Part shown: positions 5,801-31,899 of the stretch, piece by piece | How positions within the stretch are numbered: the first letter of the stretch is position 1 | Layout: each line of letters starts with the position of its first letter | Assembly: GCF_000017845.1 (NCBI RefSeq) | Contig: NC_010546.1 | Span: forward strand, 1,020,001 to 1,052,000 | Direction of reading: 5' to 3' | Length of the DNA stretch: 32,000 nt | DNA from: Crocosphaera subtropica ATCC 51142 | Lineage (GTDB): Bacteria; Cyanobacteriota; Cyanobacteriia; Cyanobacteriales; Microcystaceae | Translations under genes and position numbers: made by a program | The notes under the pieces: model-generated | What the model was told of the DNA's origin: nothing | What the model saw: only the letters and a program-made list of their open reading frames with translations | Database searches by the model: none

Positions 5801-6976
5801 TTAAATTCGGTTTTTTCCTAATGCTGGATTAGTAATGGTTTCTGTTAGTTTATGCAAGGTATTCTCTAAATATTGTTGTCGGCAAGCTTGACGTTGAATT
5901 TTTCCACTAGAAGTCTTGGGAAGACTACCAGTTTGAATGAGGATAAGATCATAAATCAGTAAATCGTATTCTCTCATCACCGCTTGACAAATATCTCCAA
6001 CAACTTTGTCAAAATCTAGTTTTTTTCGATAGCTTCGTTCTACCTCCTGAACAATAATTAATTTTTCAATTCCATCAACAGCAACAGAAAACGCTGCACC
6101 ACAATTTGGCCGTAATGCTGCATTACTTTGAGCGACGGTTTCTTCAATATCTTGGGGGTAATAATTCTCTCCTTTGATAATGAGAACATCTTTTAAGCGA
6201 CCGGTAATAAACAATTCCCCATCTTTGATAAATCCTAAATCCCCTGTCCGTAAAAAAGAACCTTGCTTACTATCAGCAAGATAAGCATTAAAAGTGTGTT
6301 GAGTTGCTTGCGGTAAATTCCAATAACCTTGAGCAATACTATCACCAGAAACCCAAATTTCTCCTACTTCATGGGGTAAACAAAGAGTCAAAGACTGGGG
6401 ATTAACAATAACAATATGAGTATTTAACCAAGGATAACCACAACTGACAAATTGTTTACTTTTGATGGTTGTTTCTGTGGCTTTTTTAACTTTATTTTCT
6501 CCTAATGCTTCTGTATCTAATTGATACTGAGTGGGTGGTTTATCCCGATAGCCACCTGTTACCATTAAGGTTGATTCAGCTAACCCATAACAGGGATAAA
6601 AATACTTAGCTTGGAACCCAGAAATCTCAAAGGCTTCTGTAAATTGTTCTAAGGTTTTTGCCCGAATGGGTTCAGCCCCATTATAAGCAGTTTTCCAACG
6701 ACTTAAATCCAACTTTTTGCGTTGTTCAAGAGAGATTTTATTAACACATAAATCATAAGCAAAATTAGGTCCGCCACTATGAGTCACACCGTAATTAGAA
6801 ATTGCTTTTAACCAATTAATGGGTCTGCCTAAAAACGCAATGGGTGGCATCAAAATCCCTAAAATACCGCTATAAATAGGTTCTAAAATGCCATCAATTA
6901 ACCCCATATCATGAAAATGAGGTAACCAACTCGCTGATACATCTTGTGAGGTTAATTCAAACCTTTGTTGAATATA
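5801..6976 (-). pseudogene. Fatty acyl-AMP ligase (FAAL), 3' portion, separated from its 5' portion by an IS insertion
   Basis: The reading frame is open from 6976 (YIQQRFELTSQDVSASWLPHFHDMGLIDG...) to the stop at 5801-5803. Adenylation-domain motifs: GYGLAEST, FLRTGDLGF, GRLKDVLIIKGENYYPQDIE, SSGKIQR. There is no start codon or promoter of its own apart from the internal Met at 6907. Confidence 0.85.
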
Positions 6977-6984
6977 TAGCTAGT

Positions 6985-8036
6985 CTAACTGAATCGTGAA
7001 AAAGCCTCGTAGTTTTTAAAATTAGGAAGATTGAATAGTTTCAACTCAACAAAAAGTTGAAAAAGACGTTTAACAATTTTAAAATTTTTCCCAAATCTAT
7101 AAAATCTTCTCAGTAAAGTTTTGAGTTGTAACCAAATTGCTTCTACGGGATTTTCTTGAGGGGAATAAGGAGCAAAAAGACAACAGGTTACTCGCCATTC
7201 TTCTGGTGACAAATCTTGATTTTCTCTAGCTAAAAACTTTTGCATTTCTTTTCCTCTATGATAACTGGCTCCATCCCAAATCCATAAGGTTTTAGCTTCG
7301 GGATTTTTTTTCTGTAATTGTTGGACAAAATCTACCGTGTTTTTTCCATTTCCTTTTTGATAAGGAAGCAAAATAAATTCTTGAGTTAATAAATTTAATG
7401 CCCCATAATATGTCTGTCTTTCTTTAGGATTTAAAAGAGGAATTTTTAAGGGTTCTTTTATTAAGTTCCATAGATATCCGCAAATATCCTCCCAGTGAAG
7501 ATGACATTCATCAACTATATACACTATCAGCTTTCCTGAATCTATTTCCTCTCGTCTATTTTCCAGAATTTGCGCTATTTCTTGGTTTTTTTTTGAGTGA
7601 CTTCTTCATGATATCTAGGATTAATTTGTTGCCCCTTTTGCCAAGAAATTTTCGCCTCTTTTAAAATCTTATAATAACTTTGAAGAGATTGATAAACCAC
7701 ATCATATTTCTCAATTAGATAAACTTCTAGTTCAGAAATATCCCAGGTTTTTTGTTCAATTAGCCACTCAATTATCTCGGTACGTTCTTGATTTGTTAAG
7801 TAACTTTTACTTCCTTTGTATCCTGATTTTAAACCATTTATACCCCCAAAATTAAAAGCATTAACCCATTTACTAATAAATCCTAGTGACACAGATAAAA
7901 TTTCTGAGACTCTTTCATAACGATAGCCTTCTAGCACTAACTTTACCGCTAAAGCTCTTTGAGTCTCTCTCCCGTTTGATGAATTTTCAAGAAACTCTTT
8001 AATTAGCTCAATTTTCTCCTTATTGTCTATTATCAT
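6985..8036 (-). CDS. IS630-family DDE transposase in two frames (orfA 7575-8036, HTH; orfB 6985-7524, DDE), joined by a predicted -1 frameshift
   Basis: orfA is helix-turn-helix-like (RALAVKLVLEGYRYERVSEILSVSLGFISKWV). orfB carries a DDE triad context: IVDECH, WIWDGASYHR, APYSPQENPVEAIW. orfB is in the -1 frame relative to orfA, and that frame opens immediately 5' of an A9 run. Confidence 0.8.
7586..7594 (-). other. Candidate -1 programmed ribosomal frameshift heptamer A_AAA_AAA
   Basis: T9 on the plus strand is A9 in the transposase sense. In the orfA frame the codons read CAA AAA AAA ACC, so A AAA AAA is in the X_XXY_YYZ phase. The -1 frame has a TGA just upstream and then reads SKKNQEIAQILENRREEIDSGKLIVYIVDECH into orfB. 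Confidence 0.55.
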
Positions 8037-8117
8037 GAGTTTGTTTCTTTTTGAAATTACTCTTTTAATTTTACCTAAACAGAGCTTTTTTTATTCACGA
8101 CTCATTTAGAAACGCTA

Positions 8118-8749
8118 TATCGGCAATTATGCAAAATATTTCCATGACTCACCATCACCCCTTTTGGTTGTCCCGTAGAACCGGAAGTATATTGGAGTAA
8201 CGCTAAGGTGTTTTGATTAATCTCCCTAGAAACTGGAACAGGTTCGGAGGTTTCGGGTAAATTATCACTTGTCAGCCAGGATAAAACCGATAATTCTCGA
8301 TTATCGGTGAATCTTCGTTCAATTTGGGGAAAAGCTTCGGTGGTGGATAAGCCGATTTTTACCTCAGCATTGGCAATAATGGCTTTAATGCGATTGATGG
8401 AACGGTTGGGACGGGGAGGATACAAGGGAATAGCAATCACTCCAGCATAAAGACAGGCAAAAAAAGCGATAATAAAATCTAGTCCGGGGGGATAAAGAAG
8501 TAATATGCGATCGCCAGATTGAGTCAAGTTTTGGAGATAAACGGCTAATTTTTGCGCCTGTTGGTCTAATTCTTGATAAGTTAACCTGCTAGATTCATTT
8601 TTGCCATTTTGCAGGAAAATAAAGGCAGTTTGTTTAGCCTGATAATTTGCCCTATATTTAATCAGATCAATTAAAGAAGTCCAGTCTGAATGGTCAGAAG
8701 ACTCGGTCAATGACGAAATCTTCCATTCTTGGGATACACTACTCAACAT
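8118..8749 (-). pseudogene. Fatty acyl-AMP ligase (FAAL), 5' portion, truncated by the IS insertion
   Basis: The ORF starts at 8749 and contains LTYQELDQQAQKLAVYLQ and the A3 core LLQYTSGSTGQPKGVMVSHGNILHN. After codon TAT (8117-8119) it runs into the IS end and stops at 8102-8104 (…CRYSVSK*). Confidence 0.85.
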
Positions 8750-10864: not shown

Positions 10865-11641
10865 TTAAAGATTATCCAGTTGACGGCGTAAGTCATCTAA
10901 CTCTGCATCAACCACTTCGTCTTTAGGAGAGGCTTTATCCTCTTGGGTCGATCCTTCTGGTAGGGCCCCTTGGGGTTCGGCTGATCCGGTCATTTGGGCT
11001 TTAAGCATGGCCAGTTCATCTTCGACACCGCTTCCGGCTTCGAGTTCAGCAAATTGATGTTCTAAACTCGAGCCCCCTAATTCTCCCACGGCTTGCGATC
11101 GGGCTTCCATATCTAATACTTTGTTTTCCATGCGTTCAAAGGCGGCCATGGAACCACTGGTATTGAGGCCACTCATGGTGGACTGTAGTGCTTCGTTCGC
11201 TTTAGCAGCCTTAGACCTGGCGATCAGCATATTTTTCTTAGTCTTCGCTTCAGAAATTTTGCTTTCTAGGGCTGTCAGGTTACGGCGCATGGTTTCAATT
11301 TGTCCGCTTTGTTGCTCTAGTTGTTCTTTGAGGGTTGTCGCTGTCTCGGTGTAAGATTTTTTCCGAACTAAGGCTTCTCTGGCTAAGCTTTCTTCCCCTT
11401 TAGAGAGGGCTAATTTTGCCCGTTGTTCCCAGGTATTGGCATCTTTAAGGGCTTGTTTATACTGTGCTTCGGTTCGTTTTTGGGAAGCCAGAGTTTGGCC
11501 GAAGGCTTGTTTTAATTGGATCAAGTCTTCACCCATATCCATGATGGTTTGTTCTAAGACTTTTTCTGGATCTTCTGCTTTGCTAACCAGATCGTTGAGG
11601 TTGGCTCGGACCACTCGGCCTAGGCGATCAAATAATCCCAT
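10865..11641 (-). CDS. vipp1: Vipp1 / IM30 (PspA family with C-terminal extension)
   Basis: 258 aa. PspA-type N-terminus MGLFDRLGRVVRANLNDLVSKAEDPEKVLEQ, long coiled-coil body, and a Vipp1-type C-terminal extension ending VVDAELDDLRRQLDNL. Confidence 0.85.
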   Translation of the reverse strand: MGLFDRLGRVVRANLNDLVSKAEDPEKVLEQTIMDMGEDLIQLKQAFGQTLASQKRTEAQYKQALKDANTWEQRAKLALSKGEESLAREALVRKKSYTETATTLKEQLEQQSGQIETMRRNLTALESKISEAKTKKNMLIARSKAAKANEALQSTMSGLNTSGSMAAFERMENKVLDMEARSQAVGELGGSSLEHQFAELEAGSGVEDELAMLKAQMTGSAEPQGALPEGSTQEDKASPKDEVVDAELDDLRRQLDNL

Positions 11642-19944: not shown

Positions 19945-21291
19945 CTAATGATTAGTCACAATTCTAAAACCTGCGTGTTGATAGAAGTTAGGACGGAACC
20001 AATTACGATAATATTTTAAGGTTTCTGTTCCTTGAGTTACCCAAGCCCCTCCTAACATCATTTTATGGTTATTATCAAAAAAGGGTGCGGAATTATCTTC
20101 ATAGAGAAAATGGGGTTCAAATCCTGGTAAGGGATGAAAATTTTCGTCTAACCATTCCCAAACATTCCCCCGTAAGTCCCATAGTCCCGAATGACTTTGG
20201 GCTGTTTTGACTAACCCTACTGGACTAGGGGAACCGAATTTTAAATTGAGATTATAATCATTAACTTTTTCGATGTCTACTTGATAGTTATCATTTGATC
20301 CATAGGCTGCTAAATTCCATTCTGCTTCACTCATTAGTCTTGTTCCTTTGCCTTTCCAACCACAATAGGCCATGGCTTCATAATAATTAACTTCTACGGG
20401 CCAATCTAAAGGTAATGGTATTTCATCAAACATAGCACGATAGGAATATTTACCATTATTGAATTGCCAAAACTTAGGATTTTTGACTTTGTTTTCTTCT
20501 TTCCATTGCCAAGATTTTTCGTTCCAATAGGATTGAGTTTCGTAACCTTTACGATTGATAAATTCGAGAAACTCTCCATTAGTGACTAAATATTGACTAG
20601 CAAAAAATGAATCAACTTTAACCAGGCGATCGCCATATTCACAGTCCCATCCATATAAAGGATTATCTTTAGCTTTACCTAGTGTAACGGTTCCTCCCTC
20701 TACTAAAATCATCTTATTTGTATTAGGAACTCCCTGAGAAGGTGCATATTGCCATCCTTGCGGTTTTTCCACTTTTTCTGTGGGAAGTTGTCTTAATAAC
20801 ATCGAAGAGGTTTCAAAATGAATTCGTTGATGTTCCATCCCCATCATCAAAGCCCAAAGGGGATGACTGGCATGGATAGGAAGGTCGAAAGTCGTATTTT
20901 TGATAACTTCTAAAATCACCTCATAAGCTTTATTTCGATAGTCCCAAACTTGCCTAACATCTGGCCAATTAATATGAGCGATCGCCTGATTTAATTCTTC
21001 TGCATTTTCGGGATCAACTCCAAATTCAAATAAAATTTCATAATCTGAATTAATCCCTTTTTCTAATAACTCAACTCGAATTAATTTATTAATATAAAAA
21101 GCAGCAGAATGACCTAAATAAAAAATTAAGGGATTCCTTAAGGGATCAGGATTAATATAAAATGTTTCATCATCTATAATACTCCTCATCAAAATGTTTT
21201 CTAATTCCCAACTATTTTGAAAGTAATTTATGACGGAATCTTGAGTACAATTATTAAGAAAAATCGGTAATTGAGATTTAATGAATGACAT
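19945..21291 (-). CDS. egtB: Sulfoxide synthase, OvoA-N-terminal-like (DinB-like plus FGE-sulfatase domains); probable ergothioneine EgtB
   Basis: 448 aa. DinB-type metal-site blocks PLIFYLGHSAAFYINKL and MGMEHQRIHFETS. FGE-sulfatase-type block LWDLRGNVWEWLDE. No C-terminal methyltransferase domain. Located directly downstream of egtD. Confidence 0.8.
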   Translation of the reverse strand: MSFIKSQLPIFLNNCTQDSVINYFQNSWELENILMRSIIDDETFYINPDPLRNPLIFYLGHSAAFYINKLIRVELLEKGINSDYEILFEFGVDPENAEELNQAIAHINWPDVRQVWDYRNKAYEVILEVIKNTTFDLPIHASHPLWALMMGMEHQRIHFETSSMLLRQLPTEKVEKPQGWQYAPSQGVPNTNKMILVEGGTVTLGKAKDNPLYGWDCEYGDRLVKVDSFFASQYLVTNGEFLEFINRKGYETQSYWNEKSWQWKEENKVKNPKFWQFNNGKYSYRAMFDEIPLPLDWPVEVNYYEAMAYCGWKGKGTRLMSEAEWNLAAYGSNDNYQVDIEKVNDYNLNLKFGSPSPVGLVKTAQSHSGLWDLRGNVWEWLDENFHPLPGFEPHFLYEDNSAPFFDNNHKMMLGGAWVTQGTETLKYYRNWFRPNFYQHAGFRIVTNH

Positions 21292-21358
21292 ATAATATAC
21301 TTAATTAAGGGATACAAATGATAGGAGCATAATTAATAATACTCCTATTAACTATAAC

Positions 21359-22366
21359 TTATTTACAAGCTTGGCAGAGAATTAATGCAAACCATTGATT
21401 TTTATCAGTAAAGACTTTGACTGGTTTTAATTGCTTAGAAGCTAATTTATGCTTAGTTTGCTCTACATCAAACTTACGAGAAATCTCAGTTAATATTTTC
21501 TCTTTTCTTTCTAAATTGACTGTTAAGTCAAGATTTTTGAAGGTAATTCTTTGCTCTGTTTCAGATTCTAGATACATTTCAATTTGATGTTTTTCTTCAT
21601 TGTAGATAGCTTGATGTTTGAAGCAATTAAGGTCAAAGTTTCCTTGAAATTTATGGTTTAAATGGGAAAGCATATTTAAGTTAAAAGCAGCCGTTACTCC
21701 TTGACTATCATTGTAAGCTGCCTCTAAAATAGATCTAGGTTTTTGTAAATCAACTCCCAATAAAAAATAATCTCCCTTTTCCAGAACTTTTGCAATTTTA
21801 TTTAAGAAGTTATCATAATCAGTTTCACTAAAATTGCCGATAGAACTTCCCAAGAAAAAAATCATTCTTGCTGACCAAGAAGTTGACTTTAATTGAGTTA
21901 ATGCCTGGTCATAAGTTCCCACCAAACCTTGAATTTTTAGAGAACTATATTCTTGCTGTAATTGTATGGCACTTTCTTTTAAAATTCCTGCACTAACATC
22001 AATTGGCATATATTTAAACAGATCATTTTGCTGATCGTAAGCATCCAATAATAAGCGAGTTTTAGTGGAACTTCCACTTCCTAATTCGACTAATTCACAA
22101 TTCCCTGTGATTTGGGCAATTTCTTCTGCATATTGTCTTAAAATACTGGCTTCTGTTCGTGTCGGATAGTATTCGGGTAACTCACAAATTTGCTCAAATA
22201 ATTGAGATCCCTGATCATCATAGAAATATTTAGATGGTATCTTTTTAGGGCATTGAGTTAACCCTTCTTTTACATCTTGACCCAAGGAATTGTTTAGTTT
22301 GTTTACAGTTTCAAGGGGCTGTAAATATTCAATTTTTAATTGCTCTGTTTGAAGTTGGGTTAACAT
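21359..22366 (-). CDS. egtD: L-histidine N-alpha-methyltransferase
   Basis: 335 aa. EgtD-type blocks LPEYYPTRTEASIL, SAM-binding ELGSGSSTKTRLLL, FLGSSIGNF. Adjacent to the sulfoxide synthase gene. Confidence 0.85.
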   Translation of the reverse strand: MLTQLQTEQLKIEYLQPLETVNKLNNSLGQDVKEGLTQCPKKIPSKYFYDDQGSQLFEQICELPEYYPTRTEASILRQYAEEIAQITGNCELVELGSGSSTKTRLLLDAYDQQNDLFKYMPIDVSAGILKESAIQLQQEYSSLKIQGLVGTYDQALTQLKSTSWSARMIFFLGSSIGNFSETDYDNFLNKIAKVLEKGDYFLLGVDLQKPRSILEAAYNDSQGVTAAFNLNMLSHLNHKFQGNFDLNCFKHQAIYNEEKHQIEMYLESETEQRITFKNLDLTVNLERKEKILTEISRKFDVEQTKHKLASKQLKPVKVFTDKNQWFALILCQACK

Positions 22367-25699: not shown

Positions 25700-26014
25700 A
25701 TGTTTTCTAAAGACAATCTTTTTGCTGTTTCTTTATTTCCCTATTTAGGGTTTTTGTGGTTTCTGACTCGTTCTCAAGAAACCCCTCGTTTAGCTTTAAT
25801 TGGCTTTTATGTTTTATTAGTCTTTGTGGCTGTTACCATTCCTGCTGGAATCTATGCCAAAATGGAATATGGAGAAGTATTAGCGAATATTGACTGGTTA
25901 CACGGTAGCGCAGAATCTTTCTTAACCTTATCTAATATTTTAGTTGCTTTGGGGTTTCGTCAAGGAATTATAGAATATCAAAAGAAACAAGAAAAAACTC
26001 AAACAGATGATTAA
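25700..26014 (+). CDS. Small conserved membrane protein (recalled as DUF3593-like; name unverified)
   Basis: 104 aa with three hydrophobic helices (FAVSLFPYLGFLWFL, LIGFYVLLVFVAVTIPAGIY, FLTLSNILVALGF). Overlaps the convergent Uma2 gene end by 4 nt. Confidence 0.5.
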   Translation: MFSKDNLFAVSLFPYLGFLWFLTRSQETPRLALIGFYVLLVFVAVTIPAGIYAKMEYGEVLANIDWLHGSAESFLTLSNILVALGFRQGIIEYQKKQEKTQTDD

Positions 26015-26565
26015 GTAATACTGATGATTTTTTTCACAGGAATAATTATATCAGGAAAAGCTAAAGGACTCATATTTCCCTCAGTTAAGCTTAATTCTGT
26101 AGTGTAATCACTCTCTTTTAGGTTTTTAAAAACTTTTAATTGATTATTAATTAAATCAACTATCCAATATTCTTTGATTTGGGCTTCTGCATAAATCTCT
26201 TTTTTCTCAGTTAAATCTTTTCGTAAAGTTGCTTTAGAAAACTCAATTAACCAGTAAATATCATCAGGATAGGGATGATGTTTCAAATATTCTTTTACCA
26301 AGGGTTTAACAATTGCAATATCTGGAGAGGGTTCGGAATTATTCGGTAACGTAATGGGTTTAGCATCTCGAACTTTAGCAAAATTTTTCAATAAATCTTT
26401 TAAATAATCAGCACATTCTGAATTATAGTAAGCATGGCTTTCTCTTTCGGGTGTCATGACAATAATTTCTCCTTTTAATAATTCTACCCCTTGATCCTCA
26501 AAACATCCGGCTGCGATCGCTTGATGATAGTGTTCAATAGTCCATTTATAAGTCATTCGTGTCAT
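26011..26565 (-). CDS. Uma2-family (DUF820) endonuclease
   Basis: 184 aa. Typical Uma2 layout: YHQAIAAGCFEDQGVELLKGEIIVMTPERESHA, PDIAIV, and EYWIVDL near the C-terminus (PD-(D/E)xK-like). Confidence 0.8.
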   Translation of the reverse strand: MTRMTYKWTIEHYHQAIAAGCFEDQGVELLKGEIIVMTPERESHAYYNSECADYLKDLLKNFAKVRDAKPITLPNNSEPSPDIAIVKPLVKEYLKHHPYPDDIYWLIEFSKATLRKDLTEKKEIYAEAQIKEYWIVDLINNQLKVFKNLKESDYTTELSLTEGNMSPLAFPDIIIPVKKIISIT

Positions 26566-26668: not shown

Positions 26669-27688
26669 ATGATGAATCAATTACCAATACCCTCTTTTTT
26701 TGATGCTAAAAACGTTAATAAATTTTGGCGAGTTCCTTATCTAAAAAGAGTTACTGAAGCCAGGGAATGGAAAAAAAAGTATCAAATAGTATCATCTATA
26801 GAAGATAAGACTAAAATTATTTTATTACTGATTGATGTACAAAACACCTTTTGTTTGCCTGATTTTGAATTATTTGTTGCAGGAAAATCGGGAAATGGTT
26901 CAGTAGAAGATAATATACGTTTATGTGAATTTATTTATAGAAATTTGGGACGAATAACCACCATTGCCCCCACAATGGACACCCATACAGCTATGCAAAT
27001 TTTTCACCCTATTTTTTGGGTCGATGAAAAGGGGAATCATCCTGAAGCTGGTATTACCATGATTTCCTACGAAGAAGTTAAACAAGGACGATGGAAAGTT
27101 AATCAAAATATTGTTCATAATTTCAACATTTCTCTAGACAAACTAGAAAACTATGCCCTACATTACGTTAAAAAAGTGACAGAAGATAGTAAATATCCCT
27201 TAACCATTTGGCCCTATCATTCCATGTTAGGGGGCATTGGCCATGCTTTAGTTTCTGCTGTAGAAGAAGCCTTATTTTTTCATAATATGGTTCGCAGTAG
27301 TCAAACTCAATTCGAGTTAAAAGGAGATAACCCCTTAACGGAGAATTATTCTGTTTTAAGTCCTGAAGTCTTAAGAGATAATCAAGGAGAAAAAATAGCG
27401 CAAAAAAATAATCAATTTTTAAACAAAATACTATCTTTTGATAAGATTATTATTGCCGGCCAAGCAAAAAGTCATTGTGTGGCTTGGACAGTTGAAGATT
27501 TACTCACAGAAATTAAACAAAAAGATCCAAACTTAGCCAAAAAAGTTTATTTATTAGAAGATTGTACCTCTCCTGTGGTAGTTCCTGGTGTGATTGACTT
27601 TACAGAGAAAGCAGACGCAGCCTTTCAACGCTTTTCTGAGGCAGGAATACACCGAGTTAACTCCACCGATGATATGGATACTTGGTAA
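26669..27688 (+). CDS. Isochorismatase-family cysteine hydrolase (nicotinamidase-like)
   Basis: 339 aa. LLLIDVQNTFC (the hhhDxQNDF block) and IIIAGQAKSHCVAWTVEDL (catalytic Cys block). Confidence 0.7.
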   Translation: MMNQLPIPSFFDAKNVNKFWRVPYLKRVTEAREWKKKYQIVSSIEDKTKIILLLIDVQNTFCLPDFELFVAGKSGNGSVEDNIRLCEFIYRNLGRITTIAPTMDTHTAMQIFHPIFWVDEKGNHPEAGITMISYEEVKQGRWKVNQNIVHNFNISLDKLENYALHYVKKVTEDSKYPLTIWPYHSMLGGIGHALVSAVEEALFFHNMVRSSQTQFELKGDNPLTENYSVLSPEVLRDNQGEKIAQKNNQFLNKILSFDKIIIAGQAKSHCVAWTVEDLLTEIKQKDPNLAKKVYLLEDCTSPVVVPGVIDFTEKADAAFQRFSEAGIHRVNSTDDMDTW

Positions 27689-28355: not shown

Positions 28356-28356
28356 C

Positions 28357-28424
28357 AGTCCTTCGGACTAGGCAGGAGTACGATTAGAGGCCAGTGTGAA
28401 TGCGCCTCTGATCAGCATCCTGCC
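28357..28424. terminator. Compound stem-loop element after the stop codon (UUCG-tetraloop hairpin plus nested GC-rich hairpin)
   Basis: AGTCC-TTCG-GGACT (28357-28369). Then GGCAGGA (28371-28377) pairs with TCCTGCC (28418-24), and AGAGGC (28386-91) pairs with GCCTCT (28404-09). Confidence 0.4.
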
Positions 28425-28869
28425 TCCTTTAATGATGAGTAATTAAGCAGATTTCATCTGAGATTTCTCTGGCTAAAATTTTCACTATAGGTTAATCATT
28501 AGCGCAATAATTGAAAATGTAAAGTTTTAATACATTATTCAATTTTAAGTCAATCATTACAAAATTGTTTGACATACTGAAATTAGTAGGTTTAGTACAT
28601 CATAAGTGTAGTCAACTGTCAAGGTAAATAGCCTATATGAATTGTTGATTACTGTTGTCGAAGATGATTAGCTTTTGTTGTCTTTAACTAATAAAACTAC
28701 TTTAATAACTTTATCCCCTCAGAATTTAATAACAACGTTTCTGTTTGGATTGGAGGGATTATTTTGACTTTAGTAATTACACTAAGTTGAATCACTGAAG
28801 TATACATAGCCTTGTTTTTTAGAAAAATAGCTCCTCCAACCTATGACTTGGAAAACATGGAGGAAGTCT

Positions 28870-30312
28870 ATGATTACCAGAAGAATAAATCTAGATGTTG
28901 CTAGTGTTGAACATCCTCTGATTAATAGGATGTTTGGTGAAGATTTGATAATTGATTTTGACTCTTCTTATCATCCTATTCCTGAATGGAGAAATATTCC
29001 TGTTGGATATGATATGATTATCCAGTTCCGTGATGATCTTCTCAGTCGTTACTTACGAAGGAATATCTCACTAGGACGAGGTGAATATTTTGTTGACTAT
29101 TCACCTGAGTCATTAGAACCGTCTACAATTAATGTCATTAATGATTTAACACCTCAAGGTGAGACTACACCAGTTTTCATTCAAGGAACGGGAATTTACT
29201 TTCATGAAATTGCCTTTGAACCTTACCAGATAAAATTTCAACTCCAACAAGGCACCGTCAAACCGAACCTGGGTACAGAAGGACAAGTGGTGGTTGAATG
29301 GGATTTAAACTCACTGATTGTGTTCCGTGAAACTTCTGACAGCCTAGAGTTTCGGAGAAGGCAAGAAGATACCAGAATTACAATAGAACCAATTACTCAA
29401 GAGATAAAGTTTGCCACCAATTCCCTACGGGTAACGGCTGAACTAACCCTTGAATCTGAGATAGAAAAATACCATGTATGGGGATCTTTAGACTTTAGGG
29501 ATAGCACGTTTTCCCTCGAACAAGACGAACCACTAGCACAAACCTATTTTGGTTTTTTGATAGACACTTTAAATGCAGCATTATCAAGCAAAATTGTAGT
29601 GACTCCGCAAGTTGTCATCCCTGGATATTATGCTGGTCGGCAAGTCAACGTTGATCTCGGTCGTATGTTTAGTTATCGGGTCGTGACAAAGGGAAATCAA
29701 CCCAGAGATAAAATCTTACATATCTGCTTAAGTTTTGATCGTGAAGTAGATGTAACCAATCTCGATTTAGTGCGTCCCTTTTCTGGAGAGGATAATTACG
29801 CTATTTACCAACATGAAAACTTGGTGCTGAAGATATTACGGGCAAAATGGAATTTGCTTTTTGAGCGAGACCGAGAAATATTAATCGATACAGAATTACC
29901 TCTGATTCGAGAGAGGCGAGAAGTGAGTGGGAGGGGAAGATTTCGTCTCAAATTCCAACAACTGCGTCAGGCCGATTTTGCGACTACCTTAAGGAGACCC
30001 GACTTTATAAGAGTTCTCATCATTGCTGAGAATGAACTTTTGCAAGCTTGGGATGAATTTGATCGTGAGTTAGATGTGAATGATTTAGGTGTCGTTCCTA
30101 AAGGAGAAGAAGCTTTAGGTATTATGTATTTTCCATTTCGTCAACCTATCACTGACCCAACTAATATTAACCGATTTATTAATCGATTATTTACCAATTT
30201 GCTTAGGCAGATGTATACACCCTTTCATGGACGAGATATTTCTCGTCTAAGTCGCATCAATGGTTATCTGTCCAAACCTCTTCAAGCAATCTTTATTACC
30301 GGAAATTTATAA
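28870..30312 (+). CDS. Unknown protein (about 480 aa), first gene of the JAMM operon
   Basis: Long ORF (listed start 28843). The ATG at 28870 has GGAGGA 5 nt upstream. Mixed beta/alpha-looking sequence with a single Cys. I recognise no catalytic or binding motif. Confidence 0.7.
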   Translation: MITRRINLDVASVEHPLINRMFGEDLIIDFDSSYHPIPEWRNIPVGYDMIIQFRDDLLSRYLRRNISLGRGEYFVDYSPESLEPSTINVINDLTPQGETTPVFIQGTGIYFHEIAFEPYQIKFQLQQGTVKPNLGTEGQVVVEWDLNSLIVFRETSDSLEFRRRQEDTRITIEPITQEIKFATNSLRVTAELTLESEIEKYHVWGSLDFRDSTFSLEQDEPLAQTYFGFLIDTLNAALSSKIVVTPQVVIPGYYAGRQVNVDLGRMFSYRVVTKGNQPRDKILHICLSFDREVDVTNLDLVRPFSGEDNYAIYQHENLVLKILRAKWNLLFERDREILIDTELPLIRERREVSGRGRFRLKFQQLRQADFATTLRRPDFIRVLIIAENELLQAWDEFDRELDVNDLGVVPKGEEALGIMYFPFRQPITDPTNINRFINRLFTNLLRQMYTPFHGRDISRLSRINGYLSKPLQAIFITGNL

Positions 30313-30323
30313 AGGTGGTCAAT

Positions 30324-31382
30324 ATGCCAAGTCAAACTTTTGAAACACTTTTTGGACAATTTCAGTCTAGCCCCCAAGACCCTTTAGCTAGTATGGGGCA
30401 ATCAACAGCAAAAAATTTTAATGCGTTCAATGTTCAGATTAGTTGTTTATTGGATCATGTCAATTTTCTTGAGAAGGTTGATCAACAAGATCCTATCTTG
30501 AAATCTCAATTCTCTCGCAAAACATTTGAACAAGACGTTATTTCTGTATTTAATCAATTGGAAGATAACATAAGAACGCTTAGCCAAAGTGCTGTCCCTA
30601 TTCTCAAGGCAATGAGGCACTCAAACAGTCTTGAGATAGGATTTGAGCAATTACGAGACGGACTACGGCAAACTGGCTCGGTTCAGTTCTTGGAATTGAT
30701 GCAAGAGACTTTTGAGCAACAGCCAATCTCAGGGGAAGTGAATCAACTCGTCAGTTCTGAAAATCTTCAACAGTTATTTCAGAAGATAAAGAATAGTCAA
30801 ATTCAAAGCTTCGTTGATGTTCAAGATGAGAAGTTGCATTTTAATATTCAGAAAGATCAGAATGAGGAATTTTTTGTTAAATTACCTGATAAGAATCAAC
30901 AGAAAACGTCACTTAATCAATTAATACATCAAGATGATGTTGACGAGATATTAAATGCTTTTCTTCAAGGAGAGATAATCAACGCCTTTGTCATCTCTCA
31001 GGAAACTCAAAAGTCAGACACTATAACCATTGATGATATCCTGGTTGACCTAGGGTTGATTCCATCTCATGTATTGCATGAGCGTGTTCGTGAGCTAGAA
31101 GATGTGGGTTTGCCAGTCTATCAAGGAAATGATGGGGGCTTAAGTGCATTAGCGATCACTGGATTAATTATTGTTGGCGTTGGTATTGCTGCAGCACTCG
31201 TCGGTGCAGCTTTACTGATAGCCTGTAATACCACTGGTGATGACGATCTGTGTCGCTACGGTTTATGGACATTAACTCTTGGTCTGGCGACAGCTGCCAC
31301 TGGTTTGTTTCTTTTGTCTTGTGCCTATGGCGGCTGTGCCATAGCTGCTGAGCTTGCTGTGGAGGCTTTTAAGAGAATTTGA
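30324..31382 (+). CDS. Unknown membrane protein: ~270-aa Gln/Glu-rich soluble domain plus two C-terminal small-residue-rich TM helices
   Basis: ATG at 30324 with AAGGTGG 5 nt upstream, 11 nt after the preceding stop (the listed GTG is at 30315). C-terminus LSALAITGLIIVGVGIAAALVGAALLIACNTTGDDDLCRYGLWTLTLGLATAATGLFLLSCAYGGCAIAAELAV. Confidence 0.7.
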   Translation: MPSQTFETLFGQFQSSPQDPLASMGQSTAKNFNAFNVQISCLLDHVNFLEKVDQQDPILKSQFSRKTFEQDVISVFNQLEDNIRTLSQSAVPILKAMRHSNSLEIGFEQLRDGLRQTGSVQFLELMQETFEQQPISGEVNQLVSSENLQQLFQKIKNSQIQSFVDVQDEKLHFNIQKDQNEEFFVKLPDKNQQKTSLNQLIHQDDVDEILNAFLQGEIINAFVISQETQKSDTITIDDILVDLGLIPSHVLHERVRELEDVGLPVYQGNDGGLSALAITGLIIVGVGIAAALVGAALLIACNTTGDDDLCRYGLWTLTLGLATAATGLFLLSCAYGGCAIAAELAVEAFKRI

Positions 31383-31385
31383 AAA

Positions 31386-31844
31386 ATGATTTTTTATGAT
31401 TTCTTGTGGCTTCCTGAACACATTGTTAACGACTTGAGGTTCTGTTTTCAGAAAACCTCTTTAGTTGGTAGTGAGTGTTGCGGTCTGATTCTGGGTAGCT
31501 ATCAAAAATATATTGCTCATGCGCAACAGCTTCTCCCTGTTCATAATGTGCATCAACAGAAAAATAGCTTTATGCTACCGTTACATACCTATCGTCAAGC
31601 CAAGTATATAAGCAAAAAGTGTAATTGGGATATTATCGGAATCTATCATAGTCATCCAAATGGTAAGCCCTATCCGAGTCCTATGGATGTTCGTGGCATA
31701 GAAAACTCCGACTATCCTTGGCTTATACTAGCACCTGCTTGTAATAAACAAGCTGGACTCGAATTAGTTGCATTTCAGCCAGGTACAATGAAGCCGATCA
31801 CCATTCATACCAAATCCGCTTTAGATACCCCCTTTAAAAATTAA
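31386..31844 (+). CDS. Stand-alone JAB/MPN+ (JAMM) metalloprotease
   Basis: 152 aa. Complete JAMM signature: upstream Glu in GSECCGLILG and HSHPNGKPYPSPMD (HxH-x7-S-x2-D). The ATG lies 3 nt after the preceding stop. Confidence 0.85.
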   Translation: MIFYDFLWLPEHIVNDLRFCFQKTSLVGSECCGLILGSYQKYIAHAQQLLPVHNVHQQKNSFMLPLHTYRQAKYISKKCNWDIIGIYHSHPNGKPYPSPMDVRGIENSDYPWLILAPACNKQAGLELVAFQPGTMKPITIHTKSALDTPFKN

Positions 31845-31864
31845 TAGCTTCACCCATGAAAACC

Positions 31865-31899
31865 CTTCTGCCCTCTGCCTCCTGCCTCCTGCCTGTTCT
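31865..31899. repeat. Degenerate heptamer tandem repeat (CTTCTGC CCTCTGC CTCCTGC CTCCTGC CTGTTCT)
   Basis: Direct reading, immediately downstream of the JAMM gene. Shares TCCTGCCTCCT with the element at 28418-28428. Confidence 0.65.

What the first reader, a model, noticed from the sequence alone, without database searches (positions are those of the whole stretch)
28843..31844. Orphan three-gene operon: unknown ~480-aa protein, 2-TM membrane protein, stand-alone JAMM/MPN+ protease
Seen in sequence:
- Three co-directional ORFs are packed head to tail. The first stop (TAA, 30310-12) is followed by an ATG at 30324 with an AAGGTGG SD. The second stop (TGA, 31380-82) is followed by an ATG at 31386.
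- About 490 nt of AT-rich non-coding DNA precedes them, and a repeat array follows.
- The last gene has a complete JAMM active site (E in GSECCG; HSHPNGKPYPSPMD).

Established knowledge: prokaryotic JAB domains normally sit next to Ubl/E1/E2 genes (CBASS Cap2/Cap3, Bil/Bub-type systems), ThiS/MoaD-like sulfur carriers (Mec/CysO, QbsD) or phage tail genes. None of these partners is visible in this window.

The actual partners are two proteins I cannot place in any family. The first is a ~480-aa protein with no motif I recognise. The second has a ~270-aa Q/E-rich domain followed by two Gly/Ala/Cys-rich TM helices, a layout reminiscent of membrane-disrupting effectors.

Inference: this may be a protease-coupled membrane module, for example a defence or abortive-infection system, or a maturation module in which the JAMM enzyme processes one of the two partners.
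Basis: partly seen in the sequence, partly recalled or inferred. Interest (0 to 1): 0.85.

Follow-up and report, generated by a model that had tools for sequence, protein, structure and literature searches.

The report
BPI-like lipid binder, membrane anchor, JAMM protease
A rare, horizontally moving three-gene cassette in the cyanobacterium Crocosphaera subtropica encodes a cytoplasmic protein predicted to fold like the human antibacterial lipid-binding protein BPI, a membrane-anchored partner and a metalloprotease, a combination that matches no described bacterial system and whose function is still unknown.

Summary
Three tightly packed co-directional ORFs end in a stand-alone JAMM/MPN+ protease with a complete active site, and convergent housekeeping genes follow, so the JAMM gene closes this unit. 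The window is Crocosphaera subtropica ATCC 51142 (ORF2 = cce_1055).

New findings:
- ORF1 ('T') belongs to a very rare, unannotated family (55 representatives among 1.84 billion proteins).
- Its confident AlphaFold model (pLDDT 88) matches BPI and LPS-binding protein, so it is a two-barrel TULIP lipid binder. It has no signal peptide.
- ORF2 ('M'), a helical domain plus a two-helix membrane hairpin, follows T in 10 of 10 informative loci and is fused to it once.
- The JAMM gene ('J') is present in 8 of 9 informative loci.
- Pairwise similarity ranks agree for all three proteins, so they are inherited as one unit.
- The 3.3-kb cassette sits at unrelated genomic sites in two sister strains.
- No Ubl/E1/E2 gene, phage or plasmid copy, or defence-gene neighbour was found.

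Best reading: a membrane-tethered lipid-binding or membrane-perturbing complex switched by JAMM proteolysis, carried as a mobile accessory module. The JAMM substrate and the biological role are inferred, not shown.

The parts
28477..31807 (+). Conserved 3.3-kb cassette: leader plus the three genes. It is shared with Cyanothece sp. BG0011, where it sits in an unrelated genomic context.
   Evidence: blastn of the window against L010 matches only this block (96.4% over 3332 bp). The edges are sharp in the alignments. Cassette GC is 0.379 against 0.364 for the window.
28356..28842 (+). AT-rich non-coding leader. The part from 28477 onward is conserved with BG0011 but diverges three times faster than the ORFs. 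It presumably holds the promoter.
   Evidence: Divergence is 9.0% in the leader against 2.1-3.3% in the ORFs. No Rfam match. Promoter-like sites are no more frequent than in shuffled sequence.
28843..30312 (+). ORF1 = 'T': cytoplasmic BPI/LBP-like double-TULIP protein (489 aa). The likely true start is the ATG at 28870 (480 aa), preceded by GGAGG at 28859-28863.
   Evidence: No Pfam, NCBIfam, PADLOC or PHROGs match. The family has 55 representatives. AF2 model: pLDDT 88.3, pTM 0.84. Foldseek top hits are BPI 1bp1 (E 1.1e-8) and LBP 4m4d (1.5e-8), with YceB, JHBP, Takeout, SPLUNC1 and an SMP domain among the weaker hits. No signal peptide across the family.
30324..31382 (+). ORF2 = 'M' (cce_1055): about 272 aa of mostly helical soluble domain followed by a two-helix membrane hairpin (352 aa). 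The SD AAGGTGG is at 30312-30318.
   Evidence: Orthologues follow T in every informative locus (hhalign 97.8-99.7%), and M is fused to T in P0054. No consistent Pfam or PDB match.
31089..31127 (+). The most conserved segment of M, just before TM1 (R256-x3-D260-x-G262-L263...G268; consensus H-x-R-x-L-[EQ]-D-x-G-L). It is a candidate docking or cleavage site (inference).
   Evidence: R256 and G262 are invariant in the 8-sequence alignment A8, and D260 and L263 are nearly so.
31140..31349 (+). Membrane hairpin of M. TM1 is about residues 273-300. The short loop holds C301...G305...C310. TM2 is about residues 313-342. Both helices are rich in small residues (Gly/Ala/Cys).
   Evidence: Hydropathy windows of 1.6 or more start at residues 270-328. 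The loop Cys pair is conserved in most family members but not all.
31386..31844 (+). ORF3 = 'J': stand-alone JAMM/MPN+ (Prok-JAB) metalloprotease of 152 aa. It is the last gene of the unit.
   Evidence: Pfam PF14464, E 1.3e-12. Closest solved relatives are 2kcq and Pyrococcus JAMM1 5ld9. Convergent genes lie downstream.
31473..31475 (+). Codon for the catalytic Glu30 (in GSECCG).
   Evidence: Invariant E-x-C-G in all seven JAMM orthologues examined.
31647..31688 (+). JAMM zinc-binding motif H88-S-H90-x7-S98-x2-D101 (HSHPNGKPYPSPMD).
   Evidence: The sequence is. HxH-x7-S-xx-D is intact in all seven orthologues.
28412..28428 (+). Left copy of a 17-nt imperfect direct repeat (TCAGCATCCTGCCTCCT) just outside the cassette. 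It is part of the terminator-like hairpin of the upstream DUF2808 gene. Its significance is uncertain.
   Evidence: the repeat finder D8 (15 of 17 match, spacing 3462) and I4.
31864..31894 (+). Heptamer array (CCTCCTG x 4.4) that contains the right copy of the 17-nt repeat (31874-31890). It lies outside the cassette and is not demonstrably part of the module.
   Evidence: TRF score 41. The repeat finder D8.

Best explanation
The three genes form one co-inherited module, T-M-J. T (ORF1) is a cytoplasmic two-barrel TULIP protein of the BPI/LBP/CETP type, a tube-shaped lipid binder. M (ORF2) is anchored in the membrane by a C-terminal two-helix hairpin. Its roughly 270-aa helical domain faces the cytoplasm, where it holds T at the inner face of the membrane (plasma or thylakoid membrane in Crocosphaera).

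At the membrane, T extracts or inserts lipid and so perturbs or remodels the bilayer. J (ORF3) is an active JAMM zinc protease that acts as the switch by cutting a peptide bond in the complex. The most likely sites are the conserved segment of M just before its first membrane helix or, in other lineages, the linker or tail after T's last strand. Cutting would convert the complex between a tethered, inactive state and an active, released one.

The module is a horizontally moving accessory cassette. I therefore think its role is more likely conflict-related or stress-related membrane permeabilisation than core lipid housekeeping.

Shown: gene structure, conservation, the co-inherited T-M-J unit, the T-M fusion, intact JAMM sites, mobility of the cassette. 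The T fold and the cytoplasmic location are confident predictions, not experiments.

Inferred: the physical T-M complex, lipid binding, the JAMM substrate, and the biological role.

The confidence of 0.45 is for the whole chain. The core claim (a conserved T-M-J unit with a BPI-like T working at the membrane with M) is about 0.8. JAMM cleaving T or M is about 0.45. A conflict role as opposed to a physiological one is about 0.5.
For: - Fold of T: the AF2 model built on 45 family sequences has pLDDT 88.3 and pTM 0.84. The four significant Foldseek PDB hits are BPI and LBP (E 1e-8 to 9e-8, probability 1.00, aligned over the full length). Most of the strongest weaker hits are also TULIP proteins: YceB, JHBP, Takeout, Der f 7, SPLUNC1 and the TMEM24 SMP domain.
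- Cytoplasmic location: no family member has a plausible signal peptide. J and the N-terminal domain of M also lack one.
- T-M linkage: M follows T in the window, L010, L009, L011, L012, L015, L017, L018, L019 and L020, and the two are fused into one 951-aa protein in L014.
- J linkage: J is present in 8 of 9 informative loci, usually 3-15 nt from or overlapping the preceding stop, with E-x-C-G and HxH-x7-S-xx-D intact in all.
- Co-inheritance: pairwise similarity ranks agree for T, M and J.
- Constraint: dN/dS is 0.31 for T and 0.26 for M.
- Mobility and rarity: only 28477-31807 is shared with strain BG0011, and the flanks are unrelated. BG0011 has an RHS protein and an AbiEii-like fragment nearby. 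Integrases lie near the module in L014 and L015, and a transposase in L019. The family has 55 representatives among 1.84 billion, in clusters of 1-6 members.
- Precedent: an operon-encoded partner gates a bacterial double-TULIP in TipA/TipB, and TipA destabilises membranes (10.1101/2025.09.09.675085).
Against: - No lipid binding, complex formation or cleavage has been shown.
- Foldseek TM-scores are low (0.22-0.33, rmsd about 15 A). The match is therefore at the level of fold class, not close homology.
- The window's T ends immediately after a conserved strand that the model places inside the fold. The conserved Gly there is Trp in another subgroup, so T offers no obvious JAMM-type tail.
- One locus (L015/L016) lacks J, so the protease is not indispensable.
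- No sensor, nuclease or known defence gene accompanies the module, and there are no PADLOC matches for T, for M or for 10 neighbours.
- The window itself is ordinary chromosome.
- The synteny sample is 10 distinct loci out of 55 family representatives, chosen partly for contig length.
Confidence: 0.45

Rival explanations
1. Physiological lipid-trafficking tether. T-M would be a bacterial counterpart of membrane-anchored eukaryotic SMP/TULIP proteins such as E-Syt and TMEM24, moving a particular lipid or hydrophobic metabolite to or from the membrane. J would serve only for turnover or maturation. The module would then be a niche metabolic accessory and not a conflict system.
For: - T has a TULIP fold and is cytoplasmic.
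- The T-M fusion carries a C-terminal hairpin anchor.
- In L020 an HsaA-like flavin monooxygenase of steroid/lipid catabolism lies 47 nt upstream on the same strand.
- An alpha/beta hydrolase and a P450 lie near the module in L019 and L014.
- There are no defence neighbours.
Against: - The distribution is extremely rare and patchy, and the cassette sits at different sites in sister strains, near integrases, a transposase and an RHS protein.
- The metabolic neighbours are not conserved between loci.
- Tandem duplication of M (L015, L017, L020) and variable lectin-like add-ons look more like diversification under conflict.
- A dedicated JAMM protease is unusual for a transporter.
Confidence: 0.28
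2. J is a deconjugating isopeptidase, like Cap3, BilC or the desampylases. It would remove a ubiquitin-like or other C-terminal conjugate from T or M, or from their targets, with the conjugation machinery (E1/E2/Ubl) encoded elsewhere in the genome.
For: - All characterised small Prok-JAB enzymes act on C-terminal carboxylate-linked bonds (established knowledge; survey in PMC1779556).
- The closest solved relative with a known activity is the desampylase PfJAMM1.
- The best NCBIfam hit is a desampylase model, and weak PADLOC hits are to CBASS JAB models.
Against: - No Ubl, E1 or E2 gene is present in the 32-kb window or in any of 10 related loci.
- Scores are far below family cut-offs: desampylase 37.5 against 130, and Cap3 13.6 against 200.
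- T shows only TULIP elements and no beta-grasp.
- Tight co-inheritance of J with T and M argues for a substrate within the module.
Confidence: 0.1
3. The module is a remnant or cargo of a phage-tail-like or contractile injection machine, with J acting like the lambda gpK tail-assembly JAB.
For: - J matches PHROGs tail-protein families (phrog_30, E 8e-16).
- A VipA/VipB sheath gene lies convergent to the module in L012.
- A 93-aa protein in the L018 operon has a weak 'Phage_spike' hit (E 0.003).
Against: - The PHROGs match is to the JAB domain itself.
- T, M and the L018 upstream genes have no significant tail or baseplate matches.
- tblastn of T finds nothing in 50,697 phage or 72,556 plasmid records, and nothing in IMG/VR.
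- No tail genes are present in the window.
Confidence: 0.04
4. The three genes are adjacent but functionally unrelated, or are decaying orphan ORFs.
For: - There are no functional data.
- ORF1 appears frameshifted in BG0011.
- dN/dS of ORF3 is 0.88, based on only 9 differences.
Against: - The order is conserved down to about 20% identity, one lineage has a fusion, similarity ranks agree across the three proteins, catalytic motifs are intact and dN/dS is about 0.3 for T and M.
- The BG0011 frameshift is a T6-to-T7 homopolymer change in a long-read unitig, so it may be a sequencing error.
Confidence: 0.02

Closest known systems
BPI / LBP / CETP family (eukaryotic double-TULIP lipid-binding proteins)
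   Same: The predicted architecture of ORF1 is the same: two helix-sheet-helix barrels joined by a central sheet, about 450-490 aa, aligned over the full length by Foldseek (E 1e-8, probability 1.0). BPI binds lipid and permeabilises membranes, which is the activity proposed here.
   Different: There is no detectable sequence similarity (7-9% identity; no Pfam LBP_BPI_CETP hit in 45 members). There is no signal peptide, so the protein is cytoplasmic and not secreted. It is encoded with a membrane anchor and a JAMM protease. TM-scores are low (about 0.3).
TipA/TipB of Bdellovibrio bacteriovorus (bioRxiv 10.1101/2025.09.09.675085)
   Same: It is a bacterial BPI-like double-TULIP encoded in an operon with a dedicated partner protein that controls it. 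TipA adheres to membranes and destabilises them.
   Different: TipA and TipB are secreted into prey. TipB is a small soluble beta-sandwich, whereas M is a 350-aa helical, hairpin-anchored membrane protein. TipA/TipB has no protease. No sequence relationship was detected.
Other bacterial TULIPs: DUF4403, YceB/DUF1439, DUF2140, DUF2993, P47/OrfX (Levine 2019, PMC6791001)
   Same: They share the TULIP fold. DUF4403 is also a full-length BPI-like pseudodimer of about 460 aa.
   Different: Those families are periplasmic, lipoprotein or exported proteins. None of the 45 ORF1-family members matches their Pfam models. None is described with a JAMM or 2-TM partner.
Eukaryotic membrane-anchored SMP/TULIP proteins (E-Syt, TMEM24, tricalbins)
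   Same: They are intracellular TULIP domains held at a membrane by a hydrophobic hairpin or TM anchor. The T-M fusion protein P0054 has this overall logic, and an SMP domain (5tod) is among the weak Foldseek hits.
   Different: SMP proteins have single TULIP domains that dimerise and use C2 domains. Their anchor is N-terminal. They have no protease partner. This is an analogy only.
Prokaryotic JAB systems: CBASS Cap2/Cap3, Bil/Bub, Mec+/CysO, QbsD/QbsE, archaeal desampylases, lambda gpK
   Same: ORF3 is the same kind of minimal JAMM/MPN+ enzyme with an identical catalytic motif. Its closest solved relatives include the desampylase PfJAMM1.
   Different: None of the defining partners (CD-NTase, E1/E2, Ubl/ThiS/MoaD, NlpC/P60 fusion, tail genes) is present in the window or in 10 related loci. 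Scores against the specific NCBIfam models are far below their cut-offs.
Bacterial gasdermin-protease pairs
   Same: This is a conceptual parallel only: a lipid-interacting effector encoded next to a dedicated protease, with short C-terminal tails in many family members.
   Different: T does not have a gasdermin fold (no such Foldseek hits). The protease is a JAMM and not a caspase-like or serine protease. The window's T has no tail.

Membership tests
TULIP superfamily, BPI-like double-TULIP architecture (ORF1) | Two tandem helix / long curved beta-sheet / helix barrels joined by a central sheet | tested here: met
   The AF2 model (pLDDT 88.3) has two such units: H64-79, E107-225, H230-246 and H325-344, E345-429, H441-458. 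The central strands are E275-298 and E471-488. The four significant Foldseek hits are BPI and LBP, and most of the strongest weaker hits are other TULIPs. This is a prediction only, and the TM-score is about 0.3.
TULIP superfamily, BPI-like double-TULIP architecture (ORF1) | Sequence membership in a described TULIP family (Pfam LBP_BPI_CETP, DUF4403, P47, DUF1439 and others) | tested here: not met
   0 of 45 family members match any Pfam family at E <= 0.01. The family profile finds nothing in PDB sequences.
TULIP superfamily, BPI-like double-TULIP architecture (ORF1) | Hydrophobic internal cavity that binds lipid | not testable with these tools
   Model coordinates cannot be inspected here. 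This needs cavity analysis and lipid mass spectrometry of purified protein.
Extracellular BPI-like proteins and known bacterial TULIPs | Signal peptide or lipobox, meaning an extracytoplasmic location | tested here: not met
   No N-terminal hydrophobic signal is seen in the window protein. A single member, P0042, shows a weak internal hydrophobic stretch.
JAMM/MPN+ metalloproteases, Prok-JAB (ORF3) | Pfam PF14464 above the gathering score | tested here: met
   48.1 bits against a cut-off of 25, E 1.3e-12.
JAMM/MPN+ metalloproteases, Prok-JAB (ORF3) | Catalytic Glu plus H-x-H-x7-S-x2-D zinc site | tested here: met
   E30, H88, H90, S98 and D101 are present. The motif is intact in all seven orthologues examined.
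JAMM/MPN+ metalloproteases, Prok-JAB (ORF3) | Peptidase or isopeptidase activity | not testable with these tools
   Needs an enzyme assay.
CBASS type II (Cap2/Cap3) | CD-NTase, an effector and Cap2 (E1-E2) next to the JAB gene, and the Cap3 equivalog model | tested here: not met
   No such genes are present in the window or in related loci. NCBIfam Cap3 scores 13.6 bits against a cut-off of 200.
Bil/Bub and the Iyer-Burroughs-Aravind 6a-6e Ubl-E1-E2-JAB operons | Adjacent Ubl, E1-like and E2-like genes | tested here: not met
   These genes are absent from the window and from 10 related loci. ORF1 shows only TULIP elements. The fold of ORF2 was not determined.
Sulfur-carrier and desampylase JAMMs (Mec+/CysO, QbsD/QbsE, HvJAMM1) | Adjacent ThiS/MoaD/SAMP-type beta-grasp protein with a C-terminal GG, and the equivalog model | tested here: not met
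   There is no such neighbour. NCBIfam desampylase scores 37.5 bits against a cut-off of 130.
Phage tail gpK-type JAB | JAB fused to NlpC/P60 within a tail gene cluster | tested here: not met
   ORF3 is a stand-alone 152-aa protein. There are no tail genes. T has no hits in phage records or IMG/VR.
Known or candidate anti-phage defence systems (PADLOC-DB v2) | Match of the system's proteins to a PADLOC model, and/or location among defence genes | tested here: not met
   T has no match. M has only a 15-bit hit to PDC-S02 that is not reproduced in other family members. J matches generic JAB models only. Ten neighbours in L014, L015 and L020 have no hits. The window neighbours are housekeeping genes.
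TipA/TipB-type TULIP plus adapter pair | Secreted double-TULIP with a small beta-sandwich partner | tested here: not met
   T has no signal peptide. M is a 352-aa protein with a two-helix membrane hairpin. Only the operon logic is shared.

The most novel reading that the evidence does not exclude
T-M-J would be a previously unrecognised kind of bacterial membrane-attack or abortive-infection system. A BPI-like double-TULIP protein would be kept tethered or inactive at the inner face of the membrane by M. JAMM cleavage would release it to extract lipid and permeabilise the cell's own membrane. That would make BPI/LBP, a pillar of animal innate immunity, another immune effector fold with a prokaryotic conflict-system counterpart. 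It would also be the first JAMM protease to act as a direct effector switch without any ubiquitin-like machinery.
Probability: 0.2. Interest if true: 0.9.

Novelty: categorically new. Interest (0 to 1): 0.72.

Why it matters
- **For TULIP biology:** the bacterial TULIPs characterised or predicted in the papers read here are exported or envelope proteins. A cytoplasmic, membrane-tethered BPI-like double-TULIP would be a new cell-biological class. It bears on where the intracellular lipid-transfer proteins (SMP/E-Syt) and the secreted immune proteins (BPI/LBP) of eukaryotes came from.
- **For JAMM biology:** every characterised small prokaryotic JAB enzyme works with a ubiquitin-like protein or an E1/E2 system. 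This one has co-evolved with a lipid binder and a membrane protein instead, which implies a new substrate class.
- **For conflict systems:** if the module is a conflict system, it adds an effector principle, lipid extraction from within, to the known repertoire.
- **Testability:** the cassette is only 3.3 kb, self-contained and found in a culturable model cyanobacterium, so the question can be tested directly.

Tried and rejected
- **Single-sequence and two-sequence AF2 of ORF1:** useless (pLDDT 31). Only the 45-sequence alignment gave a usable model.
- **Word-indexed homology searches:** these found almost nothing. Only the exhaustive profile search revealed the family.
- **Collection scans with the close-pair profile:** metagenome and IMG/VR scans found nothing. 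The genome scan used patterns from two close sequences, so it can only find close relatives (one hit, BG0011).
- **Hidden Ubl or E2 in ORF1:** rejected. The model shows only TULIP elements.
- **T's conserved C-terminus (…ITGNL) as a JAMM-type tail:** rejected for the window protein. The model places it in a buried strand, and the Gly is Trp in another subgroup. GG-containing tails of about 20 aa in other members remain unexplained.
- **Internal duplication of ORF1 by hhalign of its N and C halves:** no signal. This is uninformative because BPI's halves are also dissimilar in sequence.
- **ORF2 remote homology:** Pfam DUF7063 appears in 1 of 8 members, and PADLOC PDC-S02, phrog_15960 and claudin hits are all weak and inconsistent. 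I treat them as chance. Whether residues 150-245 of ORF2 form a beta-grasp-like subdomain could not be tested.
- **Contractile-injection or phage-tail link:** not supported.
- **Defence-island context:** not supported.
- **Leader region:** no RNA family, and promoter-like sites are at chance level.
- **Literature:** nothing for cce_1054-1056, and nothing linking TULIP and JAB or TULIP and phage defence.
- **Taxonomy of distant relatives:** mostly unobtainable. The one hint is a Mesorhizobium-like neighbour in L019.

Full report
**1. The observation**

The window is chromosome of Crocosphaera subtropica (Cyanothece) ATCC 51142. ORF1 is 100% identical to an NCBI 'hypothetical protein [Crocosphaera subtropica]', and ORF2 is cce_1055.

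- ORF1 is 28843-30312. ORF2 is 30324-31382, with AAGGTGG at 30312-30318. ORF3 is 31386-31844, starting 3 nt after the ORF2 stop.
- ORF1 more probably starts at the ATG at 28870. A GGAGG lies 6 nt upstream, and this start gives the 480 aa annotated by NCBI. The first 38 residues are in any case unconserved and disordered in the model.
- ORF3 is a bona fide Prok-JAB protein (PF14464, E 1.3e-12) with E30 and H88-x-H90-x7-S98-x2-D101.
- The 'repeat array' after the genes is a small heptamer run (4.4 copies).

Contigs that extend beyond the window show convergent asparaginase II, CGLD27 and RsfS genes about 450 nt downstream. The JAMM gene therefore ends this unit and does not start another.

**2. 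Rarity and the family behind ORF1**

ORF1 and ORF2 match nothing in Pfam, NCBIfam, PADLOC or PHROGs. Word-indexed searches of 5.8 billion protein clusters found a single relative of ORF1 (46% identity) and none of ORF2.

An exhaustive HMMER profile search of 1.84 billion representatives found 55 relatives of ORF1, mostly 470-560 aa. None of 45 tested has a Pfam domain. Their clusters have 1-6 members, all named 'hypothetical protein'.

Among 185,579 species-representative genomes, only Cyanothece sp. BG0011 carries a close relative. That scan used patterns from two close sequences, so it could not detect distant members. Related contigs have 49-69% GC. One of them (L019) carries a neighbour gene that clusters with a Mesorhizobium protein. 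The family is therefore scattered well beyond cyanobacteria.

**3. [quoted passage not shown]

With the 45-sequence alignment, AlphaFold2 gave a confident model: pLDDT 88.3, pTM 0.84, and all five models between 86.7 and 88.3. The model has two helix / long curved sheet / helix units plus central strands.

Foldseek against the PDB returned human BPI (1bp1, E 1.1e-8; 1ewf) and LPS-binding protein (4m4d) as the only significant hits. Each has probability 1.00 and aligns over the full length. Most of the strongest weaker hits are also tubular lipid-binding (TULIP) proteins: YceB, juvenile-hormone-binding protein, Takeout, Der f 7, SPLUNC1 and the TMEM24 SMP domain.

TM-scores are low (0.22-0.33), as expected for long, hinged boomerang-shaped proteins. 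The claim is therefore about fold class, not orthology. Nothing significant was found among viral structures.

No family member has a signal peptide. In contrast, the known bacterial TULIPs (YceB, DUF4403, DUF2140, DUF2993, P47/OrfX, TipA) are exported or envelope proteins (PMC6791001; 10.1101/2025.09.09.675085).

**4. The three genes are one unit**

I call ORF1-like proteins T, ORF2-like proteins M and the JAMM J. The gene order in each locus is:

| Locus | Gene order |
|---|---|
| window | T-M-J |
| L010 (BG0011) | T-M-J |
| L009 | T-M-J (46/31/36% identity) |
| L012 | T-M-J (T about 20% identical) |
| L018 | T-M-J, at the end of a longer operon |
| L019 | T-M-J |
| L020/L021 | T-M-M-J |
| L014 | T fused to M in one 951-aa protein, followed by an overlapping J |
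| L015/L016 | T-M-M, no J |
| L017 | T-M-M (contig cut) |
| L011 | T-M (contig cut) |

M identity was confirmed by hhalign at 97.8-99.7% probability. M therefore follows T, or is fused to it, in 10 of 10 informative distinct loci, and J is present in 8 of 9.

Pairwise similarity ranks agree for T, M and J. Window-L009 is the closest pair, L012-L014 the next, and L018 the most distant. J has therefore been inherited with the other two genes and was not recruited locally. All seven J orthologues keep E-x-C-G and HxH-x7-S-xx-D.

Between the two Crocosphaera/Cyanothece strains, dN/dS is 0.31 for T and 0.26 for M. The non-coding leader has diverged three times faster than the ORFs.

**5. ORF2**

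The M family shares a mostly helical soluble domain of about 270 aa. Its best-conserved motif, H-x-R-x-L-[EQ]-D-x-G-L, lies immediately before the first of two membrane helices rich in small residues. A short loop between the helices usually carries two cysteines.

With no signal peptide, the simplest topology is N-in and C-in, which places the soluble domain in the cytoplasm alongside T and J (inference).

No consistent remote homology was found.

**6. Genomic behaviour**

Only window 28477-31807 (leader plus genes) is shared with strain BG0011, at 96.4% identity. Both flanks are unrelated, and the right breakpoint lies inside the 3' end of the J gene.
- In BG0011 the neighbours are an RHS-repeat protein, an AbiEii/AAA_15 fragment, an ABC transporter and a deacetylase.
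- In the window the neighbours are DUF2808, Uma2 and housekeeping genes. The rest of the window is ordinary chromosome with no Ubl/E1/E2 gene.
- Cassette GC equals host GC.
- Integrases lie near the module in L014 and L015, and a transposase in L019.
- No copy exists in the plasmid or phage collections or in IMG/VR.
- Ten neighbours of related loci have no PADLOC match.

The cassette therefore moves, but it is not found in recognisable defence islands.

**7. Mechanism**

What is shown or confidently predicted is a co-inherited T-M-J unit, a T-M fusion, an active-looking JAMM, a BPI-like fold for T and a cytoplasmic location.

From this I infer that M tethers T to the inner face of the membrane, that T binds or extracts lipid there, and that J switches the complex by proteolysis.

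The substrate is not identified:
- T's conserved C-terminus in the window protein is a strand buried in the modelled fold, and its Gly is Trp in another subgroup. It is therefore not a classical JAMM tail.
- Better candidates are the conserved juxtamembrane segment of M, and the linker or roughly 20-aa tails after T's last strand in other lineages.
- One locus lacks J altogether, so T-M is the core and J is a frequent regulator.

Mobility, rarity, duplication of M and variable lectin-like add-ons all lean towards a conflict or stress role. The add-ons are a tachylectin-like protein in L012 and a PKD/multi-TM protein in L009. The absence of defence neighbours, and lipid-metabolism genes next to some loci (an HsaA-like monooxygenase in L020), keep a physiological lipid-handling role alive.

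**8. Comparison with known systems**

- The closest structural relatives are BPI and LBP.
- The closest bacterial precedent in logic is TipA/TipB of Bdellovibrio, a secreted double-TULIP opened by an operon-encoded adapter.
- The closest cell-biological analogy is the family of membrane-anchored SMP proteins of eukaryotes.
- The JAMM is of the minimal desampylase/Cap3 type, but none of the partners that define CBASS, Bil/Bub, sulfur-carrier or phage-tail JAB systems is present.
- The reference survey of prokaryotic JAB contexts describes nothing similar (PMC1779556).
- Literature searches found no TULIP-JAB or TULIP-defence link.

**9. Verdict**

The component folds are known, but the assembly matches no described system. 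Its function is unproven.

I rate it categorically new at the level of system architecture, with interest 0.72. The score is held back by the family's rarity and by the lack of any functional or defence-context evidence.

Noticed in passing
window 5804-8749 (minus strand): An AMP-binding (acyl-AMP ligase) gene appears split into an N-terminal part (8105-8749) and a C-terminal part (5804-6907). Between them lies an inserted IS630-type element: a DDE_3 transposase (6988-7524) and an HTH gene (7578-8036). The gene sits in a P450/MBOAT/glycosyltransferase cluster.
   Followed up: no
L010 (Cyanothece sp. BG0011), equivalent to window position 29552: ORF1 is split into 261-aa and 254-aa ORFs by a single extra T in a T6 run, making it T7. 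The contig is a long-read 'unitig', so this could be a homopolymer sequencing error, a pseudogene or slipped-strand phase variation.
   Followed up: partly
window 28412-28428 and 31874-31890; hairpin 28370-28425; heptamers 31864-31894: A 17-nt imperfect direct repeat (15 of 17 match) brackets the cassette just outside the block shared with BG0011. The left copy lies in a terminator-like hairpin, and the right copy in a CCTCCTG heptamer array. It could be a recombination or target-site trace, or chance.
   Followed up: partly
L018 1-8004: In one distant relative the T-M-J triad is the tail of a tightly overlapping operon of about 11 kb. The upstream genes are unannotated (708+, 93, 603, 166 and 159 aa), plus a coiled-coil protein with weak SMC, LmuB and JetC coiled-coil hits, and a 655-aa Metallophos phosphoesterase with a weak PADLOC PDC-S10 hit (E 1.4e-5). 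This could be a larger system that uses T-M-J as an effector module.
   Followed up: partly
L012 4627-5496 and 5916-7367; L009 3379-5277: Variable extra genes follow J. L012 has a tachylectin-like repeat protein overlapping the J stop, and a convergent VipA/VipB (ImpC) sheath gene. L009 has a 632-aa Cys-rich PKD-domain protein ending in Gly/Cys-rich membrane helices that resemble those of M.
   Followed up: partly
L015 9707-11850; L017 1806-3040; L020 7867-9959: M is tandemly duplicated in three lineages (T-M-M). In L015/L016 the duplication coincides with loss of J. The T of that J-less locus (P0021) ends in a free ...TFGG, and several J-linked relatives carry GG inside C-terminal tails of about 20 aa. 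The meaning is unexplained.
   Followed up: partly
L020 5032-6174: An HsaA-like flavin-dependent monooxygenase (named 3-HSA monooxygenase by JGI, of the acyl-CoA dehydrogenase fold) lies 47 nt upstream of T on the same strand. A BTAD/AAA_16 regulator is nearby. This is a possible link to steroid or lipid metabolism in that lineage.
   Followed up: no
window 10868-11641 (minus strand): A PspA/IM30 (Vipp1-type) membrane-remodelling protein (E 2.4e-64) lies about 17 kb upstream of the cassette. There is no evidence of linkage, but it is worth noting given the membrane theme.
   Followed up: no
window 19948-22366 (minus strand): An adjacent FGE-sulfatase-domain gene (EgtB-like) and a Methyltransf_33 gene (EgtD-like histidine methyltransferase) form an ergothioneine-type biosynthesis pair.
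   Followed up: no
window 26014-26565 (minus strand) and 26669-27688: A Uma2-family putative endonuclease, and a 339-aa ORF with no Pfam match, lie directly upstream of the DUF2808 gene that precedes the cassette.
   Followed up: no
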